Under the pieces are notes generated by a model. That model did not search any database, was not told where the DNA came from, and saw only the letters and a program-made list of their open reading frames with translations. From Peptococcaceae bacterium UBA4068 (GTDB lineage: Bacteria > Bacillota > Dehalobacteriia > UBA4068), in NCBI GenBank assembly GCA_002382665.1, contig DFZA01000009.1, forward strand, positions 403,602 through 467,601: a stretch of DNA of 64,000 nucleotides. The letters are read 5' to 3'. A program made the translations under genes and the position numbers. The stretch's first letter is position 1, and every line of letters starts with the position of its first letter. Positions 2,497 to 53,963 of this stretch are shown here, one piece after another.

Positions 2497-3768
2497 TCAG
2501 CTAATATTTAATTCATCTTCTTCAATTTCGGCCAAATCACCGCCCAGCAGTTCCACGCTGATATTTTCTTCAAGCTTTTCGACATTGCGCAGTTTACGGT
2601 TAATCGCTCTGGTACGAATACCAACCAGTTTGTCCAGATTCTGATTGGCTTGCTCCAAACGCTGTTGTGTTGCTTTTAATATCTCGTCAAATTTCTCAAA
2701 TTCTCCCTTAACCGCACCCAGTAACTGCCAGACCTCGGTGCTGCGTTTTTGAATAGCCAGCGTTTTAAATCCCATTTGCAAACTGTTAAGCAAGGCCGCC
2801 ATGGTACTGGGACCGGCAATGTTTACCCGGTATTTGCGCTGCAGCTCCTCAACCATGCCTCTGTTGATTACCTCGGCGTAAAGCCCTTCAAAGGGCAGGA
2901 ACATTACCGCAAAATCGGTGGTGTAAGGCGGGCCGATATATTTATCATGGATATCCTTGGCTTCGCTGCGAATAACTGTCAGCAAGCGGGCAACGGCTTC
3001 ATTGACTGCCTCTTGGGAGCCGCTCTCATAAGCATCCTGCAGCGCACTGTATGAATCACCGGGGAATTTGGCGTCGATCGGCAAATAAATATGCCCGCTA
3101 TCCTCCGCGGGCAGCCGGATGGCAAATTCAACCCTATTGGCGCTACCTGGGATCACTGCAACGTTAACATCATACTGCTCCGGCGTTAATATTTCTTCCA
3201 AAATAGCTTTAAGCTGCATCTCTCCTAAAATACCGCGGGTTTTAACATTCTTCAGCACTTTTTTCAGATCACCGACGCCGATAGCCAATGTCTGCATTTC
3301 GCCAAGCCCTTTATAAACCTGCTCCAATCGTTCGTTAACCAACTGAAACGATTGAGTCATCTTTTCTTCCAGGGTTTTTTGCAGTTTTTCATCAACTGTA
3401 GCCCGCATATCCTCCAGACGGCGATTGCTGTCTTCGCGGATATTGGCCAAATTAGTCTCCATGGTAGCACGGATATTATCGAGCTTTTGCTCATTGGTCA
3501 CTTCAAAAGTTTTAAAACGGTTTTCCAAATTAAGAAAATTATCCCGTTGAGTTCCGCTGATGATCTCACTGATATTGCGCATTGAGCTTTGCAGGTTATC
3601 GGTAACATCACTATGCAGACGCTCTTCGATACGCTGCAAATCCTTTTGTAGCTGCTCTATTTGCTGAGAACCGGTTTTTTCTTGGTTGCGGCGATTAATC
3701 AGAATAATAATTAACGTTATCAAACAAATGATAACCATTATTTGCAATAACAAAGAAATCAGATCCAT
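2497..3768 (-). CDS. rmuC: DNA recombination protein RmuC
   Basis: 423 aa with an N-terminal TM helix, a long coiled-coil region and a C-terminal RmuC nuclease-like domain. Confidence 0.7.
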   Translation of the reverse strand: MDLISLLLQIMVIICLITLIIILINRRNQEKTGSQQIEQLQKDLQRIEERLHSDVTDNLQSSMRNISEIISGTQRDNFLNLENRFKTFEVTNEQKLDNIRATMETNLANIREDSNRRLEDMRATVDEKLQKTLEEKMTQSFQLVNERLEQVYKGLGEMQTLAIGVGDLKKVLKNVKTRGILGEMQLKAILEEILTPEQYDVNVAVIPGSANRVEFAIRLPAEDSGHIYLPIDAKFPGDSYSALQDAYESGSQEAVNEAVARLLTVIRSEAKDIHDKYIGPPYTTDFAVMFLPFEGLYAEVINRGMVEELQRKYRVNIAGPSTMAALLNSLQMGFKTLAIQKRSTEVWQLLGAVKGEFEKFDEILKATQQRLEQANQNLDKLVGIRTRAINRKLRNVEKLEENISVELLGGDLAEIEEDELNIS

Positions 3769-4131: not shown

Positions 4132-4543
4132 GGGAAACACATTAATGTGTTTCCCTGAGACTGTGAAAAGGGTGGTCAGCGGGCTGAGAAACAAGCGAGA
4201 CCAGGCGGCCCAGCTGGCTTTTGCCTAGCAGCAAAACCAACAGCTGAGGCACATAGGTAAAACTCAAGATAAAATATCTTGGTTTTACCTCGGCGGTCGG
4301 AACCGGCGACGCCCTAAGGGGTCCCCGCGAAGCTAAGCCAAGCGAAGCAGCTTCGTGGGGTATCGGGCGCAGGCGACCTAGCTGATTTTTACCTTGCGGT
4401 AAAACCACAGCTATGCACTTGCTGCGCTGCTGCGCAGCTTCGCGTCGTATAAAAGATACGTCGAGAAGACGGTGATGACCTGGGCGACGTATCGCGAAGC
4501 TTATCGACACTCTGAGGGAAACACATTAATGTGTTTCCTTTTT
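4132..4543. repeat. Structured intergenic element, copy 1 (about 380 bp) bracketed by identical palindromic hairpins gggaaacacattaatgtgtttccc
   Basis: Hairpins at 4132-4155 and 4516-4538, the latter followed by TTTTT. The interior shares long conserved blocks with 16926-17134 and contains at least three extra hairpin modules. The antisense Arg-rich ORF 4142..4510 is judged spurious. Confidence 0.6.
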
Positions 4544-15997: not shown

Positions 15998-16071
15998 GGC
16001 GCCATAGCCAAGTGGTAAGGCAGAGGACTGCAAATCCTTTACCCCCAGTTCAAATCTGGGTGGCGCCTCCA
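15998..16071 (+). tRNA. tRNA-Cys (GCA)
   Basis: GGCGCCA...TGGCGCCTCCA with a 7-bp acceptor stem, GCA anticodon in the loop CTGCAAA, a GTTCAAATC T-arm and an encoded CCA. Confidence 0.85.
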
Positions 16072-16074
16072 AAT

Positions 16075-16161
16075 GCCGGAGTGGCGGAACTGGCAGACGC
16101 ACAGGACTTAAAATCCTGCGGTAGCAATACCGTACCGGTTCGACCCCGGTCTCCGGCACCA
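16075..16161 (+). tRNA. tRNA-Leu (TAA)
   Basis: 87 nt, GCCGGAG...CTCCGGCACCA, anticodon loop CTTAAAA, long variable arm, GGTTCGACCCC T-arm. Confidence 0.85.
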
Positions 16162-16458: not shown

Positions 16459-16863
16459 CTATATATTTTTCTCGCTATCGAAAATCAATTCTACCTGACT
16501 ATATTGATCAATAAAGAGGCCTAATACCGGCCTCTGCCATTCATCGTTTACCAGCAACTTGGCCGCAGAGATTACCCGCTGTTTTATCTGCTCCTCGCTT
16601 TCCCGCGCATCCTCTTCAATATCCAGGATAGCATGTCCGGCTATAGCAATCGTTTGTGCATAATGATTGTTTAACGAATAATTGATCGCATCGGTAATAA
16701 CCTGGTTACCGGCGATTATTTTTTTTTCTATTTCCGGTAAAGCGATATGATCGATATAATCAACGCCTTCTGCTGAAAGACGCTCTTTCATCCATAACAA
16801 CAACGGCAATTGAATATCGCCATCACTACCGCTCAACAAAATAGCGTAAACCGGATGCTGCAT
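16459..16863 (-). CDS. Hypothetical protein (134 aa); sits where ybaJ/ybaK lie downstream of rpsI in Bacillus
   Basis: Long ORF with reasonable coding appearance. No family recognised. Confidence 0.4.
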   Translation of the reverse strand: MQHPVYAILLSGSDGDIQLPLLLWMKERLSAEGVDYIDHIALPEIEKKIIAGNQVITDAINYSLNNHYAQTIAIAGHAILDIEEDARESEEQIKQRVISAAKLLVNDEWQRPVLGLFIDQYSQVELIFDSEKNI

Positions 16864-16899
16864 AAATTACCACCTCCCGCTAAATAAAATAAATAAGGA

Positions 16900-17151
16900 G
16901 CGGTTTACCGCCCCTACAGATTGTTAAAAAAGTGGCCAGCGGGCCAAGAAACGAGCGAGACGAGGCAGGGGCGAAACCGGCGACGCAGGCGACCTAGCTG
17001 GCTTTTACCTTACGGTAAAATCTCAGCTAATGCACTTACTGCGCTGCTCCGCGGCTTCGCGGCGTATTCAAGATACGTCGAGGAGACGGGGACGACCGTA
17101 ACGACGTATCGCGAAGTTTATCGACACGCTGAAGGGGCGGAAAACCGCCCC
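16900..17151. repeat. Structured intergenic element, copy 2 (about 230 bp), between the 134-aa gene and rpsI, bracketed by inverted hairpins gcggtttaccgcccc / ggggcggaaaaccgcccc
   Basis: Block-wise alignment with 4166-4517. Shared segments include gcgacctagctg..ttttacctt.cggtaaaa, cgtat..aagatacgtcgag.agacgg and cgacgtatcgcgaag.ttatcgacac.ctga.gg. Confidence 0.6.
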
Positions 17152-17161
17152 TTGTAAACAA

Positions 17162-17554
17162 CTATCTCTTGGAAAACTGGCTGGCTTTACGGGCTTTCTT
17201 TAAGCCGTATTTACGCCGTTCTTTCATTCTCGGATCGCGAGAAATCAAACCCGCGCTCTTCAATATCGGACGTAATTCGCTCTCTGCGATGGCTAAGGCG
17301 CGAGAAATACCATGACGTAAAGCGCCTGCCTGACCGCTTACACCGCCACCATTCACACTGGCAACAACATCATACTTGCCCAGGGTGGAGGTTATTTCAA
17401 AAGGTTGCTGTACAATCATCTCTAAAGTCTTCTTGCCGAAATAATCGTCAAGCCCTTTATTGTTTACGGAGAACTTACCTGTTCCGGGAGCCAGCCATAC
17501 TTTAGCGATGGCATTTTTACGGCGTCCTGTTTGATAAAATCTAAGTTCAGTCAT
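17162..17554 (-). CDS. rpsI: 30S ribosomal protein S9
   Basis: 130 aa, C-terminal ...[14 protein letters not shown]. Confidence 0.93.
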
Positions 17555-36212: not shown

Positions 36213-36360
36213 TTTTTAACCTCCTCTTCGCCCGTATCATGACGGACATTTCTCAGCGGAAAAACCCTCGCGGCGCATCCGCAAAGCAACCTCCCGCCTC
36301 ATAGCATTAAAGTTTGTTTTGTCGGGCGGGCGTTAAACCCGCCCGACAATTAAAATTAAT

Positions 36361-41101: not shown

Positions 41102-43600
41102 ATGATCCAGAAATTCGCCGTCACAGGTATGACCTGCGCTTCCTGTTCAAGCCATGTTGAAAAAAGCGTCCGTAGCCTTTCCGGCACGGAAAATGTGACC
41201 GTCAATCTCTTAACAAACAGCATGACGGTCGAATATAACGATGCTGTTTTAAGCAATAGCGATATAATCAGCGCCGTTGCCAAAGCCGGTTATGACGCAA
41301 GTCTGCCAGAAAACACCCGTATAAAAGCGCCTGCGTCAGAAGAAAAAAAAGTTGATATTAACAGTGAACAGCTAAAAAACATGCAACTACGCTTGATAGT
41401 ATCTATAATTTTTCTGATTCCATTGATGTATATATCGATGGGACAGATGGCTAATCTTCCTCTGCCTGCTTTTTTGAGCAGTATGGAAAACGCCATAGCT
41501 TTTGCGCTGACGCAATTTCTTTTATGTCTGCCGATCTTATATGTTAACAGAAGTTTCTACACCAGAGGCTTCAAGTCTCTGTTCCACGGCGCTCCCAATA
41601 TGGACTCCCTGATTGCTATTGCTTCCACCGCCGCTGTTGTCTACGGCGTTTATGCCATATATAGGATAGGATACGGACTGGCAATCGGCGATATGCAGTT
41701 AGTTGAATCATACCGTATGAACCTATATTTTGACGCCGCCGCCATGATTCTGACACTGATCACCGTTGGCAAATATCTGGAAACAAAATCAAAAGGAAAA
41801 ACCGGTGAGGCAATTGCCCAGCTGATTAATCTGGCGCCTCAAACTGCTACAGTTGAACGTAACGGCAATTTACTGGAGGTTCCTATCGATCAGGTCATGG
41901 CGGGAGAAACGGTTTATGTAAAACCCGGCGCTGCCATCCCTGTGGACGGTACTATTTTGTCAGGCAACACCAATGTTGACGAATCAGCTATCACCGGCGA
42001 AAGCATACCGGTCTATAAAAGTATTGACGATACGGTAATCGCCGCTACCATCAATAAGACCGGTTTTATTAAAATCAAAGCTACCCGAGTTGGCGATGAT
42101 ACCACTTTTGCGCAAATCATTCGCCTGGTTGAGGAAGCCGGAGCCAGCAAAGCGCCGATTGCCCGGCTGGCGGATAAAATCTCCGGCGTTTTTGTGCCGA
42201 TAGTAATTATTATCGCCGTAATTACTATCATCGTATGGTTGTTAACCGGCGCTTCGTTTGAGTTCGCTTTTTCTTGCGGCATCAGCGTGCTGGTCATTTC
42301 CTGCCCTTGCGCGCTAGGGCTTGCCACACCGGTGGCGATCATGGTAGGTACCGGCAAAGGGGCGCAGTCAGGCATCTTAATTAAATCCGGTGAAGCGCTG
42401 GAGACAGCGCACCGCATAAACAGTATTGTATTAGACAAAACCGGTACTATCACCGAGGGCAAGCCGGTTGTAACCGATATTAAAGCCTATCAAAATACTT
42501 CCGAGCAATTACTACAAATTGCCGCCGCACTTGAAGCGGGCAGTGAACATCCGTTAGCCGCGGCTATTATTGAATATGCCAATCAAAAAGGCTGCCGTAT
42601 AACGGCAGCGCAGAATATCGAAGCTATTACCGGGCAGGGAATCAAAGGTGAAATCGACGGCAAAATATATATTGCGGGCAATCAGCGCCTACTGGCCGAA
42701 AACGGTATTAAAACAGATATTGCTATTAATGACATTAATGATTATGCCCAAAACGGTAAGACGCCGTTGCTCTTTGCCGACGGTCAACAGCTTATCGGCA
42801 TTATTGCCGTAGCCGATACCGCCAAACCTACCAGCAAGGAAGCTGTTGAGCGTTTTAAAAAGCTGGGTATCGAAGTCATCATGCTGACCGGCGATAATTA
42901 CAATACGGCGCAGGCTATCCAAAGACAGCTCGGTATCGATACCGTAATCGCCGAGGTTCTGCCTGCCGATAAAGAAAAAGAAATAACTAAGCTGCAAAGC
43001 GCGGGTAAGACTGTGGCTATGGTCGGCGACGGTATCAATGATGCACCGGCTTTGGTAAAAGCCGATGTCGGTCTGGCTATCGGCGCAGGAACAGATGTTG
43101 CCATCGAAAGCGCCGATATCGTGCTGATGAAAAACAATCTATTGGACGCTGTGACTGCCATTCGGCTCAGTAAAGCAGTCATACGCAATATCCGTCAGAA
43201 CTTATTTTGGGCCTTTTTCTATAATATTCTCGGCATACCTATCGCCGCCGGTGTGTTTTACAATCTGCTGGGTCTAAAACTAAACCCGATGATCGGCGCT
43301 GCCGCCATGAGTTTTAGCAGTGTTTTCGTAGTCACAAACGCTTTAAGATTAAGAAGGTTTAAATCAGAATCCACAAGAAAGGAGTCCGAAAATATGCAGA
43401 TTACCATGAAAATCGAAGGCATGAGCTGCATGCATTGCCAAAAACGCGTCAGCGACGTCTTAAACGCCGTACCCGGTATAAAAGCGGAAGTGGATTTAGC
43501 AAATAATGCCGCCTATATTACCTCAAATACTGCTATTGATATAAACGAGTTGAAAAAAGTTATCGAAGACGCCGGATATCAAGTTACCGAGGTGGAATAG
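41102..43600 (+). CDS. copA: Copper-translocating P-type ATPase with N- and C-terminal HMA domains
   Basis: GMTCASCSSHVE (HMA), CPC motif (SCPCALGLATP), DKTGT, GDGINDAP, and a C-terminal second HMA (GMSCMHCQKRV). Confidence 0.92.
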   Translation: MIQKFAVTGMTCASCSSHVEKSVRSLSGTENVTVNLLTNSMTVEYNDAVLSNSDIISAVAKAGYDASLPENTRIKAPASEEKKVDINSEQLKNMQLRLIVSIIFLIPLMYISMGQMANLPLPAFLSSMENAIAFALTQFLLCLPILYVNRSFYTRGFKSLFHGAPNMDSLIAIASTAAVVYGVYAIYRIGYGLAIGDMQLVESYRMNLYFDAAAMILTLITVGKYLETKSKGKTGEAIAQLINLAPQTATVERNGNLLEVPIDQVMAGETVYVKPGAAIPVDGTILSGNTNVDESAITGESIPVYKSIDDTVIAATINKTGFIKIKATRVGDDTTFAQIIRLVEEAGASKAPIARLADKISGVFVPIVIIIAVITIIVWLLTGASFEFAFSCGISVLVISCPCALGLATPVAIMVGTGKGAQSGILIKSGEALETAHRINSIVLDKTGTITEGKPVVTDIKAYQNTSEQLLQIAAALEAGSEHPLAAAIIEYANQKGCRITAAQNIEAITGQGIKGEIDGKIYIAGNQRLLAENGIKTDIAINDINDYAQNGKTPLLFADGQQLIGIIAVADTAKPTSKEAVERFKKLGIEVIMLTGDNYNTAQAIQRQLGIDTVIAEVLPADKEKEITKLQSAGKTVAMVGDGINDAPALVKADVGLAIGAGTDVAIESADIVLMKNNLLDAVTAIRLSKAVIRNIRQNLFWAFFYNILGIPIAAGVFYNLLGLKLNPMIGAAAMSFSSVFVVTNALRLRRFKSESTRKESENMQITMKIEGMSCMHCQKRVSDVLNAVPGIKAEVDLANNAAYITSNTAIDINELKKVIEDAGYQVTEVE

Positions 43601-43602
43601 CA

Positions 43603-43760
43603 CAGCGTATCGCGAAGTTTATCGACCCGCTGACAGACTGAGAGAAAAGAGCCAAGTCCTAGGCGGCAGCCAAGGCCAGACAGGGAGCGTATACGGTAAT
43701 ACGTGACCTGACTGGAAGCAGGCTGCCAACAACGGAATTGGCCTTTTGTCTCGGTCTGAA
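43603..43760. repeat. Partial/degenerate copy 3 of the structured element: 3'-terminal block (agcgtatcgcgaagtttatcgacccgctga) fused directly to a diverged, short element-like sequence
   Basis: 43604-43633 matches the last 30 nt of copies 1 and 2. The following actgagagaaaag and cgtatacggtaatacg resemble the 5' start and internal hairpin of copy 1. Confidence 0.45.
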
Positions 43761-43795
43761 AAGGCAGCTATCATTTGATAGCTGCCTTAGTTTTT
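43761..43795. terminator. Bidirectional terminator between convergent copA and clpX (13-bp perfect stem)
   Basis: aaggcagctatcatttgatagctgccttagttttt. Confidence 0.55.
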
Positions 43796-53447: not shown

Positions 53448-53963
53448 TTAACGTGTTTCTTTATTTACCAAATCCGCCAGCGTATGTGAATCCAAGACCT
53501 CGGCAATCGCTTTTTGGATTTCTTCCCAAAGATAGCCGCTACCGCAATAATCTTTTTTACTGCAGGCGGTTGCTTCACTCTCGCTGCTGCAGTCCTTATT
53601 TCTGCAAGCGTTTGCTTCACCCTCGCTACTGCAATAATCTTTTTTTTTGCAGGAAGTTGTTTCATCTTCACTGGTGCAAACAGCTAAATTAAGCGGTCCT
53701 TCCAAAGCTCTGAAAATCTCCCCGACAACTATATGCTGCGGGTCTCTGGCTAATGAATATCCTCCCTGGGCTCCGCGGCTGCTGACAATAATCCCCGCTT
53801 TTTTCAGCGGCGCCATCAGCTGTTCAAGATAACCTTCGGAAATCTGTTGGCGAAGGGAAATCGCAGATAATGTCACGGGTTTACCTTGATAATTGCAGGC
53901 GATATCCAATACTGCCCTGAGACCGTACCTGCCCTTGGTAGATATATTCATTTTGCGCCTCAT
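53448..53963 (-). CDS. Rrf2 family transcriptional regulator (CymR/IscR-like) with an expanded Cys-rich tandem-repeat insertion
   Basis: N-terminal wHTH (GRYGLRAVLDIA...GGYSLAR), then CTSEDETTSCKKKDYCSSEGEANACRNKDCSSESEATACSKKDYCGSG. Gene pair arrangement resembles cymR-yrvO. Confidence 0.8.
   Translation of the reverse strand: MRRKMNISTKGRYGLRAVLDIACNYQGKPVTLSAISLRQQISEGYLEQLMAPLKKAGIIVSSRGAQGGYSLARDPQHIVVGEIFRALEGPLNLAVCTSEDETTSCKKKDYCSSEGEANACRNKDCSSESEATACSKKDYCGSGYLWEEIQKAIAEVLDSHTLADLVNKETR

What the first reader, a model, noticed from the sequence alone, without database searches (positions are those of the whole stretch)
16900..17151. Copy 2 of the structured element sits in the rpsI 3' region, flanked by inverted hairpins
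The 230-bp copy lies between rpsI and the downstream 134-aa gene. Its left flank gcggtttaccgcccc and right flank ggggcggaaaaccgcccc are inverted copies of each other: the loops are complementary (ttta versus aaaa), so these are inverted, not direct, repeats. The same bracketing logic occurs in copy 1 with a completely different hairpin sequence. The element is therefore associated with, or creates, terminator-like palindromes at both ends. That is unusual for a plain ncRNA gene and more like an element that inserts into or duplicates hairpins. The right hairpin abuts the rpsI stop (17162) and may now serve as the operon terminator. A spurious 78-aa ORF is called across it on the opposite strand relative to the copy 1 ORF, which confirms the element is non-coding.
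Basis: seen in the sequence. Interest (0 to 1): 0.62.

Follow-up and report, generated by a model that had tools for sequence, protein, structure and literature searches.

The report
Mobile repeat that duplicates terminator hairpins
A small non-coding repeat has inserted itself at the transcription-terminator hairpin behind the ribosomal gene rpsI and left a second copy of that hairpin on its far side, which points to a mobile element that targets terminator palindromes by their shape and not their sequence.

Summary
An 18-nt GC-rich hairpin occurs exactly twice in the window (16897-16914, 17134-17151). The two copies bracket a 219-bp non-coding repeat. The other full copy of that repeat (4156-4515) is bracketed by a different duplicated hairpin.

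Orthologous loci settle the origin. Relatives that lack the repeat carry one copy of the same hairpin plus its T-tract, both between rpsI and the 134-aa gene (L027-30, L034-35) and between mop and rodA (L036). So the hairpins are the native intrinsic terminators. The repeat is an insertion that came with a second copy of the whole terminator palindrome. Two further sites in other genomes (L003, L056) show the same pattern, each with its own hairpin.

The duplicate is inverted (complementary loop) at rpsI and L003 but direct at L056. Its length (18-31 bp) follows palindrome size.

The repeat has:
- no conserved ORF and no Rfam match
- weak CAG...CTGA ends, with an exact 3' end and a ragged 5' end
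- a variable number of internal hairpin modules, and decay by deletion
- a copy in a phage contig

Best reading: a non-autonomous element that targets terminator palindromes. The enzyme and mechanism are unknown. It is a new variant of a known kind, of moderately high interest.

The parts
17134..17151 (.). Proximal hairpin GGGGCGG-AAAA-CCGCCCC. This is the native rplM-rpsI terminator hairpin in native orientation, now separated from its T-tract by the insertion.
   Evidence: Empty-site relatives have the same stem once, with loop TTTA or TCTT on the rpsI strand, followed by TTGTTT....
16915..17133 (+). Element copy 2 (219 bp, one hairpin module), antisense to rpsI. It has an exact 3' end (...CGACACGCTGA(A)) and a ragged 5' end (TACAGATTGTTAAAAAAGTGG...).
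   Evidence: Homology to copy 1 and to L003, L024, L022, L012, L026 and L056. Absent from the orthologous sites L027-30 and L034-35. No Rfam hit.
16897..16914 (.). Distal hairpin GGAGCGG-TTTA-CCGCCCC. This is the extra, inverted copy of the native hairpin. On the minus strand it reads GGGGCGG-TAAA-CCGCTCC (G.U-tolerant) and adjoins the T-tract.
   Evidence: The loop TAAA is the exact reverse complement of the native TTTA in L027-30. It matches the proximal copy 16/18 as inverted and 14/18 as direct. Called terminator-like on the minus strand.
16880..16896 (-). T-rich tract (TTATTTATTTTATTTAG on the minus strand). It is homologous to the native terminator T-tract and now follows the distal hairpin.
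   Evidence: Alignment of filled and empty sites; terminator scan.
17162..17554 (-). rpsI (ribosomal protein S9), the upstream gene whose terminator was hit.
   Evidence: PF00380.
16459..16863 (-). 134-aa gene (PF20393) downstream of the insertion. It was used to fetch the orthologous loci.
4132..4155 (.). Left copy of the mop/rodA terminator hairpin, GGGAAACAC-ATTAAT-GTGTTTCCC.
   Evidence: The empty relative L036 has one copy, GGGAAACAC-TCTTG-GTGTTTCCC, followed by TTTTAATTTGCAAAT.
4156..4515 (+). Element copy 1 (360 bp, two hairpin modules plus extra internal hairpins), sense to mop.
   Evidence: The intergenic region is 549 bp here and 176 bp in L036.
4516..4538 (.). Right copy of the same hairpin, followed by TTTTTAATTT. 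Called terminator-like on the plus strand.
43603..43633 (+). 31-nt internally deleted derivative of the element (CAGCG + TATCGCGAAGTTTATCGACCCGCTGA).
43634..43759 (+). Second rod-like palindromic element ('E2'). Its ends resemble those of the element (CAGAC...GTCTGA). It abuts the mini copy head-to-tail and the terminator hairpin at 43761-43788.

Best explanation
**What it is.** The 219-bp sequence at 16915-17133 is one copy of a small, ORF-less, palindrome-rich repeat (219 to about 430 bp). It behaves as a non-autonomous mobile element that targets intrinsic-terminator palindromes.

**Shown.**
- The ancestral rpsI site held one bidirectional terminator: A-tract, a 7-bp GC stem with a 4-nt loop, then a T-tract.
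- The element now sits 1-2 nt after the hairpin on the rpsI strand.
- A second full copy of the hairpin lies on its far side, next to the original T-tract.
- The same architecture, with unrelated hairpin sequences, is found at the mop/rodA site (its empty allele was also found) and at sites in two other genomes.
- The duplicated segment is always the whole palindrome (18-31 bp), so the cuts or joins are set by the hairpin's shape, not by a fixed stagger or a sequence motif.

**Inferred mechanism.**
- The hairpin, extruded as single-stranded DNA or as a cruciform, is cut or used as a primer at its 3' base (hairpin-T|) on both strands.
- The element is joined there, and gap filling regenerates the palindrome on both sides.
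- Complementary loops, as at rpsI, arise in one of two ways. A later quasipalindrome template switch may perfect the long inverted repeat. Alternatively, fold-back copying may occur during insertion.

**Inferred consequence.** The rplM-rpsI transcript probably now reads through the orphaned proximal hairpin and across the antisense element. It would then stop at the distal hairpin plus T-tract. That gives a 3' UTR of about 250 nt whose ends can form an 18-22-bp duplex.
For: **Empty versus filled alleles at the rpsI site.**
- L027/29/30 read TAG..ACAA GGGGCGG-TTTA-CCGCCCC TTGTTTTTT.
- L034/35 have loop TCTT.
- The window and L031-33 carry hairpin + element + hairpin.

**Second site.** L036 has a single GGGAAACAC-TCTTG-GTGTTTCCC hairpin. 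The window has two copies around copy 1.

**Further sites, each with its own duplicated hairpin.**
- L003: AGACGCGCT-AAAT/TATTT-AGCGCGTCT.
- L056: AGCAGACATG-TAAAAA-CATGTCTGCT on both sides.
- L012: a decayed pair.

**Statistics.** Chance expectation for the hairpin pairs is 0.15 and 0.00.

**Non-coding and non-autonomous.**
- No homologue of the 78-aa ORF.
- No frame conserved between copies.
- No Rfam family or tRNA.
- No covariation.
- No mobile-element genes among the window genes tested.

**Repeat behaviour.**
- Module number varies from 0 to 3.
- There is a 76-nt deletion in a 95%-identical relative.
- Independent assemblies break at the element.

**Junction regularity.** All junctions have the form hairpin-T(1-3)|CAGNGTGTCGATAA on one strand. 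The opposite end is ragged.

**Terminator.** The terminator scan calls the distal hairpin.

**Fold.** Both strands fold with the two hairpin copies as a closing helix, with z about -6 to -7.
Against: - Only five insertion sites are known, and empty alleles exist for only two.
- 'Empty' alleles could in principle be precise deletions between the two hairpin copies.
- L024 has only the 3' terminator, and the phage copy L026 has no flanking hairpins. Hairpin duplication is therefore not universal, or it is lost with time.
- Loop orientation is mixed: two sites inverted, one direct, two uninformative. No single simple mechanism fits.
- The terminal inverted repeats are weak (about 7/10).
- No autonomous partner or enzyme was found in any fetched locus.
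- Nothing shows current mobility or transcription.
Confidence: 0.75

Rival explanations
1. Polar copy-choice or retro-like insertion. A DNA 3' end lying just after the terminator hairpin (hairpin-T) primes synthesis on the element's 3' end (...CTGA(A)). Synthesis ends raggedly near the element's 5' end. The rod-like product then snaps back and copies the target hairpin, giving an inverted copy, or re-enters the chromosome upstream of the hairpin, giving a direct copy. On this view the element is a SINE-like passenger of a reverse transcriptase or of replication template switching, possibly donated by phage DNA or RNA.
For: - The 3' end is exact and the 5' end varies by up to about 13 nt across copies.
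- There is T/TT versus A/AA microhomology at the junction.
- The 3' end of the mini copy meets the 5' end of E2 head-to-tail at 43633/43634.
- Hairpin copies are inverted at two sites.
- A phage-borne copy lacks hairpins.
- All three window copies have the same orientation on the negative-GC-skew strand.
Against: - No reverse transcriptase was seen in any fetched locus.
- L056 has a direct duplicate.
- Orientation relative to GC skew is mixed in the other loci.
- No severely 5'-truncated series exists apart from one mini copy, which looks like an internal deletion.
Confidence: 0.25
2. It is a bona fide structured ncRNA gene. Its 5' and 3' ends pair in a long closing helix. The different hairpin pairs in different copies are covariation that keeps that helix. 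The arms are palindromic because the 3' arm must also be a terminator.
For: - Both strands fold far better than shuffles, with the flanks as a closing helix.
- The loops are complementary at two sites.
- Most copies lie sense to the gene on their 5' side and end in a plus-strand terminator.
Against: - Empty orthologous sites already hold the same hairpin once, so the arms are target DNA and not evolved RNA arms.
- The L056 loops are not complementary.
- L024 and L026 lack the 5' arm.
- Copy 2 is antisense to both neighbours and has no promoter-like site.
- There is no covariation, and the G.U-versus-A.C evidence is mixed between strands.
- Modules are gained and lost freely.
- No Rfam family matches.
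Confidence: 0.07
3. The element is ancestral at the rpsI site, and the one-hairpin alleles are secondary precise deletions by recombination or slippage between the two hairpin copies.
For: The two hairpin copies share 7-13-bp stems in direct orientation, which could mediate precise loss. The element demonstrably suffers deletions between microrepeats.
Against: - Two separate lineages (loops TTTA and TCTT; 80% and 82% protein identity) are both empty, while only the 95%-identical relative is filled. One gain is more parsimonious than two precise losses.
- The same pattern holds at the mop/rodA site.
- Even if this were true, the locus-specific hairpin pair still needs an insertion-plus-duplication event earlier.
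Confidence: 0.1
4. It is a degenerate ORF-less group IIC intron, which is known to insert just after terminator hairpins.
For: The insertion point is 1-2 nt after an intrinsic-terminator hairpin, at sequence-unrelated terminators. Group IIC introns do this (PMC4424553).
Against: - No hit to group II intron models, even at E up to 10.
- There is no domain V-like hairpin and no GUGYG 5' end.
- At 219 to about 430 bp it is too small.
- Group II insertion does not duplicate the target hairpin.
Confidence: 0.03

Closest known systems
Bacterial group IIC (class C) introns
   Same: They choose targets by structure. They insert immediately after intrinsic-terminator stem-loops (or attC hairpins) of unrelated sequence, so copies in one genome sit behind different terminators (PMC4424553).
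   Different: This element has no ribozyme domains (no Rfam hit), no RT ORF, and is only 219 to about 430 bp. It is accompanied by a second copy of the whole target hairpin, which group II retrohoming does not produce.
Bacterial MITEs and small palindromic repeats (Correia/CREE, ERIC, RUP, BOX, SPRITE, REP/BIME)
   Same: All are small, ORF-less, multi-copy, intergenic and hairpin-rich. They show presence/absence polymorphism and internal length variants, and they can alter termination and mRNA ends (review PMC10969869).
   Different: MITEs have clear terminal inverted repeats and a short, fixed, direct target duplication. SPRITE and REP carry their own hairpins. Here the terminal repeats are weak. 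The flanking hairpins come from the target and differ at each locus. The duplication is 18-31 bp, tracks palindrome size, and is inverted at two sites.
CRISPR repeat duplication during Cas1-Cas2 spacer integration
   Same: Two joins at the two borders of a palindromic sequence duplicate the whole palindrome around the inserted DNA. Cas1-Cas2 also integrates next to cruciform-prone inverted repeats off-target (PMC5389526).
   Different: The insert here is a specific 219 to about 430-bp repeat, not a 30-40-bp spacer. There is no array, leader or cas context. The duplicate can be inverted.
IS200/IS605 family, PATEs and REP/RAYT systems (my own knowledge, not tested in papers here)
   Same: They use single-strand, hairpin-centred DNA transactions, are small non-autonomous derivatives, and insert strand-specifically at replication forks.
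   Different: Their hairpins belong to the element and are conserved between copies. They insert next to a fixed 4-5-nt motif and make no duplication.
Quasipalindrome-associated template-switch mutation
   Same: A single replication event can convert an imperfect inverted repeat into a perfect one (PMC7202029). This would turn a direct hairpin duplicate with mismatched loops into the complementary-loop state seen at rpsI and L003.
   Different: It is a mutational process, not a mobile element. It can explain the loop orientation but not the insertion.

Membership tests
Any Rfam RNA family | Covariance-model score at or above the family's gathering threshold | tested here: not met
   There was no hit over the element at gathering thresholds. 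The only two hits over the element region at E up to 10 (E 0.53 and 4.1) scored far below threshold. The copies in L026, L024, L012 and L022 also gave none.
Group IIC intron | Insertion directly 3' of intrinsic-terminator hairpins of unrelated sequence | tested here: met
   The junction is hairpin-T(1-3)|element at five sites with unrelated hairpins.
Group IIC intron | Ribozyme core (domain V/VI, 5' GUGYG) with or without an RT ORF | tested here: not met
   There is no Intron_gpII or group-II-D1D4 hit at E up to 10 on either strand. The element is 219 to about 430 bp and has no conserved ORF.
Group IIC intron | No duplication of the target | tested here: not met
   The whole target hairpin is present twice at filled sites and once at empty sites.
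MITE (non-autonomous transposon) | Small, no coding capacity, multi-copy, with presence/absence polymorphism | tested here: met
   At least five copies come from one metagenome or organism (window x3, L057, L026). Both empty and filled alleles exist. No conserved ORF.
MITE (non-autonomous transposon) | Well-defined terminal inverted repeats shared with an autonomous IS | tested here: inconclusive
   The ends are CAGNGTGTCG... and ...ACAGTCTC, only about 7/10 complementary. No longer element with these ends was found in the window, the fetched loci or the viral contigs. Whole genomes could not be scanned.
MITE (non-autonomous transposon) | Short direct target-site duplication of fixed length | tested here: not met
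   The duplicated segment is 18-31 bp, equals the whole palindrome, and varies with the palindrome. It is inverted at two sites and direct at one.
IS200/IS605-derived PATE or REP/RAYT repeat | Element-borne terminal hairpins conserved between copies | tested here: not met
   The flanking hairpins differ completely between loci and pre-exist at the empty sites.
Intrinsic (Rho-independent) terminator (the flanking hairpins) | GC-rich stem-loop directly followed by a T-tract on the transcribed strand | tested here: met
   The empty sites read GGGGCGG-TTTA-CCGCCCC TTGTTTTTT. In the window the distal copy plus TTATTTATTTT is called terminator-like. The proximal copy is now followed by TTCAGCG and is not called.
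CRISPR repeat-spacer unit | Insert of spacer size (about 30-40 bp) within a leader/array/cas context | tested here: not met
   The insert is a 219 to about 430-bp conserved repeat. No array was found around it. Cas genes were not searched for systematically.

The most novel reading that the evidence does not exclude
The element is moved by a structure-reading mechanism that has not been described for bacterial mobile DNA. The mechanism would recognise an extruded terminator hairpin or cruciform. It would then cut, or prime DNA synthesis, at the hairpin base on both strands. The 'target-site duplication' would thus be the entire palindrome, in flip or flop orientation. A phage-borne copy may act as donor. 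The resulting hairpin-element-hairpin units would give host mRNAs long double-stranded 3' ends.
Probability: 0.3. Interest if true: 0.8.

Novelty: new variant of a known kind. Interest (0 to 1): 0.66.

Why it matters
- **A possible third structure-directed targeting route.** Known elements that pick targets by DNA shape and not sequence are few (group IIC introns, integron cassettes). This element would add a route with a distinctive footprint: duplication of the whole terminator palindrome.
- **Annotation.** The footprint is easy to search for. It could reveal similar elements elsewhere, and it explains 'tandem terminators' that annotators would otherwise read as native.
- **Effect on host genes.** The insertion rewires the ends of housekeeping operons, here rplM-rpsI. 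It orphans the original hairpin, adds a 250-450-nt structured 3' UTR whose ends form a perfect duplex (a likely RNase III substrate), and moves the working terminator.
- **Effect on assemblies.** The copies break metagenome assemblies and may mediate rearrangements.
- **Possible tool.** If the enzyme is found, a hairpin-directed integrase or primer-extension system could be useful.

Tried and rejected
- **Rfam.** Gathering and permissive searches over the window, the element and four other copies found no family. ARAGORN found no tRNA-like gene.
- **Protein homology.**
  - The 78-aa ORF gave nothing.
  - Exact look-ups of the spurious ORFs gave nothing except P0078 itself.
- **BLAST.** Searches against plasmids and phage genomes gave nothing.
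- **Collection scans.**
  - The genome-collection scan with a 20-base 3'-end pattern gave one real copy (L003). The other four hits were chance matches inside pfkA- and accD-like coding sequence, judged by eye and not confirmed by a search.
  - The metagenome scan gave three real copies out of 18 hits.
  - Six viral scans gave only L026.
- **Autonomous partner.** A search for a longer element with the same ends found none.
- **Phage genes.** Pfam and PHROGs on the L026 genes looked for a nuclease, integrase or RT. Only portal and terminase were recognised.
- **Window genes.** The ten genes tested are housekeeping.
- **Promoters.** No sigma-70-like site lies next to either copy.
- **Covariation.** None was found because the sequences are too similar. 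By eye, G.U versus A.C substitutions favour different strands in different copies, so no RNA strand could be assigned.
- **Replication-strand bias.** Bias is consistent within the window but mixed in short loci, so it was not used as evidence.
- **Further empty alleles.**
  - The gene at the mini-copy site (window 43394-43600) is not on record, so no relatives could be fetched.
- **Simple models.** A pure snap-back model (always inverted) was considered and dropped once the direct duplicate in L056 was seen.

Full report
**1. The observation**

The window sequence at 16890-17165 reads: A-rich tract, GGAGCGG-TTTA-CCGCCCC (16897-16914), a 219-bp segment (16915-17133), GGGGCGG-AAAA-CCGCCCC (17134-17151), ten bases, then the rpsI stop codon (17162-17164, minus strand).

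- The hairpin pattern occurs only at these two places in 64 kb, against 0.15 expected.
- Scored as inverted copies the two match 16/18. Scored as direct copies they match 14/18. The difference lies entirely in the loop.
- The segment between them is homologous to 4156-4515, at 85-89% over the shared blocks.
- That other copy is bracketed by a different hairpin, GGGAAACAC-ATTAAT-GTGTTTCC(C), at 4132-4155 and 4516-4538, against 0.00 expected. Its inverted repeat extends to 38 nt.

The one adjustment is that the left hairpin starts at 16897.

**2. Other copies of the element**

No Rfam family matches it on either strand, even at E up to 10. ARAGORN finds nothing.

| Locus | Source | Copy found |
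|---|---|---|
| L003 | Peptococcaceae MAG UBA5752 | one copy |
| L012, L022, L024 | one sediment metagenome | three copies |
| L026 | viral contig from the window's own metagenome, with portal and large terminase | three-module copy |
| L056, L057 | found through P0078 | two more loci |

P0078 is the only real protein-database relative of the spurious 122-aa ORF on copy 1. It is another spurious ORF lying on another copy.

Across the copies:
- A hairpin module (…AGCTGGCTTTTACCTTGCGGTAAAACCACAGCT…) is present 0 to 3 times.
- Whole sub-hairpins come and go.
- No reading frame is conserved.
- The consensus fold consists of nested hairpins without any covariation.
- Single substitutions give G.U on the plus strand in some copies and on the minus strand in others (my reading).

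So there is no evidence that either strand is a selected RNA.

**3. The decisive test: orthologous sites**

The 134-aa downstream protein has three close relatives.

*Empty rpsI sites.* In the 80% and 82% relatives the rpsI-to-gene spacer is only 53-59 bp.
- L027/29/30: TAG TTTTTTATTACAA GGGGCGG-TTTA-CCGCCCC TTGTTTTTTAGTGAGGAGG…ATG
- L034/35: TAG TTTTTATCA GGGGCGG-TCTT-CCGCCCC TTGTTTGTTTATTAGGAGG…ATG

This is one hairpin of the same sequence with its T-tract, which is an ordinary intrinsic terminator.

*Filled rpsI site.* The window, read on the rpsI strand, has: TAG TTGTTTACAA GGGGCGG-TTTT-CCGCCCC TT|CAGCGTGTCG…element…AATCTGT|A GGGGCGG-TAAA-CCGCTCC TTATTTATTTTATTT.
- The proximal hairpin keeps the native T-rich loop.
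- The distal one has TAAA, the exact reverse complement of the native TTTA.
- The native T-tract now follows the distal copy.

*The 95% relative (L031-33).* It is also filled, but its element has lost 76 nt between CGCC microrepeats, and its distal stem has decayed.

*The mop/rodA site.* A 92% RodA relative (L036) has a single GGGAAACAC-TCTTG-GTGTTTCCC followed by TTTTAATTTGCAAAT. The window has two copies around the 360-bp element.

The hairpins are therefore native target terminators. The element is an insertion, and the insertion is accompanied by duplication of the entire palindrome.

**4. Generality and limits**

| Site | Left hairpin (or loop) | Right hairpin (or loop) | Relation |
|---|---|---|---|
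| rpsI (window) | TTTA | AAAA | inverted |
| L003 | AGACGCGCT-AAAT-AGCGCGTCT | AGACGCGCT-TATTT-AGCGCGTCT | loops complementary; 22/22 inverted versus 20/22 direct |
| L056 | AGCAGACATG-TAAAAA-CATGTCTGCT | same, identical loop | direct |
| Copy 1 (window) | ATTAAT | ATTAAT | self-complementary loop, uninformative |
| L012 | AATT | decayed copy | uninformative |
| L024 | none | 3' terminator only | no pair |
| L026 (phage) | none | none | no pair |
| L057 | as L056 | different hairpin and flank | recombination between copies or an assembly chimera |

- The duplicated segment is 18-31 bp and always equals the palindrome, so its length is set by structure.
- On one strand every junction has the form hairpin-T(1-3)|CAGNGTGTCGATAA…, so the element's 3' end …CTGA is exact.
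- The other end varies: TGAGACTGTG-, TACAGATTGTT-, TTTGAGACTTTCG-, ACTGTT-, or nothing before AAAAAAGTGG.
- Independent assemblies stop at the element, as expected of a multi-copy repeat.

**5. How it most likely works**

*Shown:*
- targeting of bidirectional intrinsic terminators of unrelated sequence
- insertion 1-2 nt after the hairpin
- duplication of the whole palindrome
- no coding capacity

*Inferred:* the hairpin, as single-stranded DNA or as a cruciform, is cut or used as a primer at its 3' base on both strands. The element is joined, and filling regenerates the palindrome on both sides. This would give direct copies, as at L056.

Complementary loops, as at rpsI and L003, could arise in two ways:
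- A later quasipalindrome template switch, a known one-step route from imperfect to perfect inverted repeats (PMC7202029).
- Fold-back copying during a polar, primer-extension-like insertion. The exact 3' end with a ragged 5' end, the T/A junction microhomology, and the head-to-tail junction at 43633/43634 all fit this second idea.

I cannot decide between the two. No transposase, RT or nuclease candidate was found in the window genes tested, in the phage contig, or as a longer element with the same ends.

**6. Consequence at this locus (inferred)**

- On the rpsI strand the native hairpin is now followed by UUCAGCG and is not called a terminator.
- The distal hairpin plus TTATTTATTTT is called one.
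- No promoter-like site flanks the element.
- The rplM-rpsI transcript therefore probably runs through the antisense element and ends at about 16896. This would give a 3' UTR whose ends form an 18-22-bp duplex closing a highly structured rod (minimum free energy -116.8 kcal/mol, z = -6.2; the DNA fold has z = -7.1).

**7. Comparison with known systems**

- **Group IIC introns.** These are the best functional analogy because they also insert after terminator hairpins (PMC4424553). The ribozyme features were tested and are absent, and introns do not duplicate the hairpin.
- **MITEs.** These are the best general category (PMC10969869). The weak terminal repeats and the long, structure-defined, sometimes inverted duplication do not fit the definition.
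- **Cas1-Cas2 spacer integration.** This process duplicates a palindromic repeat and is drawn to cruciform-prone inverted repeats (PMC5389526). It is a mechanistic parallel only.
- **IS200/IS605, PATE and REP elements.** These carry their own conserved hairpins, which is not the case here.

**8. Verdict**

It is corrected on three points: whose hairpins they are, whether inversion is general, and which copy now terminates the operon.
- This is a new variant of a known kind: a small non-autonomous mobile repeat. Its target choice and footprint are unusual and testable.
- The main weaknesses are the small number of sites, empty alleles at only two of them, and an unknown enzyme.

Noticed in passing
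window 43603-43788: Directly after the stop of an 832-aa heavy-metal P-type ATPase (41102-43600) lies a 31-nt internally deleted copy of the element. It abuts head-to-tail a 126-nt rod-like palindromic element (43634-43759) whose ends (CAGAC...GTCTGA) resemble the element's ends. Next comes the bidirectional terminator hairpin shared with convergent clpX. There is no duplicated hairpin on the left. This could be a second family using the same insertion route, or a template-jump product.
   Followed up: partly
L026 209-566 (minus strand): A phage contig from the same metagenome as the window (portal and large terminase confirmed) carries a three-module copy of the element. It has no flanking hairpins and lies sense between the portal gene and a 46-aa ORF, with a TATAAT box just upstream. 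It is a possible donor or original home of the element.
   Followed up: partly
L056 and L057, about 2789-3275: The two loci share the fumarase flank, the left hairpin and an about 430-bp element that differs by one base. They differ in the right hairpin and flank (tautomerase/dnaB versus kdgT). This is either homologous recombination between element copies or a metagenome assembly chimera at the repeat.
   Followed up: no
L031 1279-1425 (also L032, L033): In the 95%-identical relative, the rpsI-site copy has lost 76 nt (the whole hairpin module) between CGCC microrepeats, and the distal hairpin stem is damaged. This copy is decaying and is not conserved.
   Followed up: yes
window 16933-16946 (minus strand): The element's minus strand carries a small hairpin (GGCCCGCTGGCC) followed by T6, which the scan calls terminator-like. 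The A6 + hairpin motif is conserved at the plus-strand 5' end of most copies. Its role is unknown.
   Followed up: no
window 4156-4515 versus 16915-17133: Copy 1 would be transcribed in sense with mop, and copy 2 in antisense with rplM-rpsI. The two 3' UTRs would then be about 85% complementary over about 150 nt and could pair in trans.
   Followed up: no
L054 (contig end 57 nt past rpsI), L055 (contig end 52 nt past mop), L037 (contig starts inside the element): Independent short-read assemblies of the same organism end at the element, as expected for a multi-copy repeat.
   Followed up: yes
window 53537-53678: Three tandem 42-45-nt repeats at 69-80% identity. Whether they lie inside a gene was not examined.
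   Followed up: no
window 15998-16158 and 36228-36310: Two adjacent tRNA genes (plus strand) and an S10-Clostridia ribosomal-protein leader (minus strand). These are ordinary features that help place the organism among the Clostridia/Peptococcaceae.
   Followed up: no
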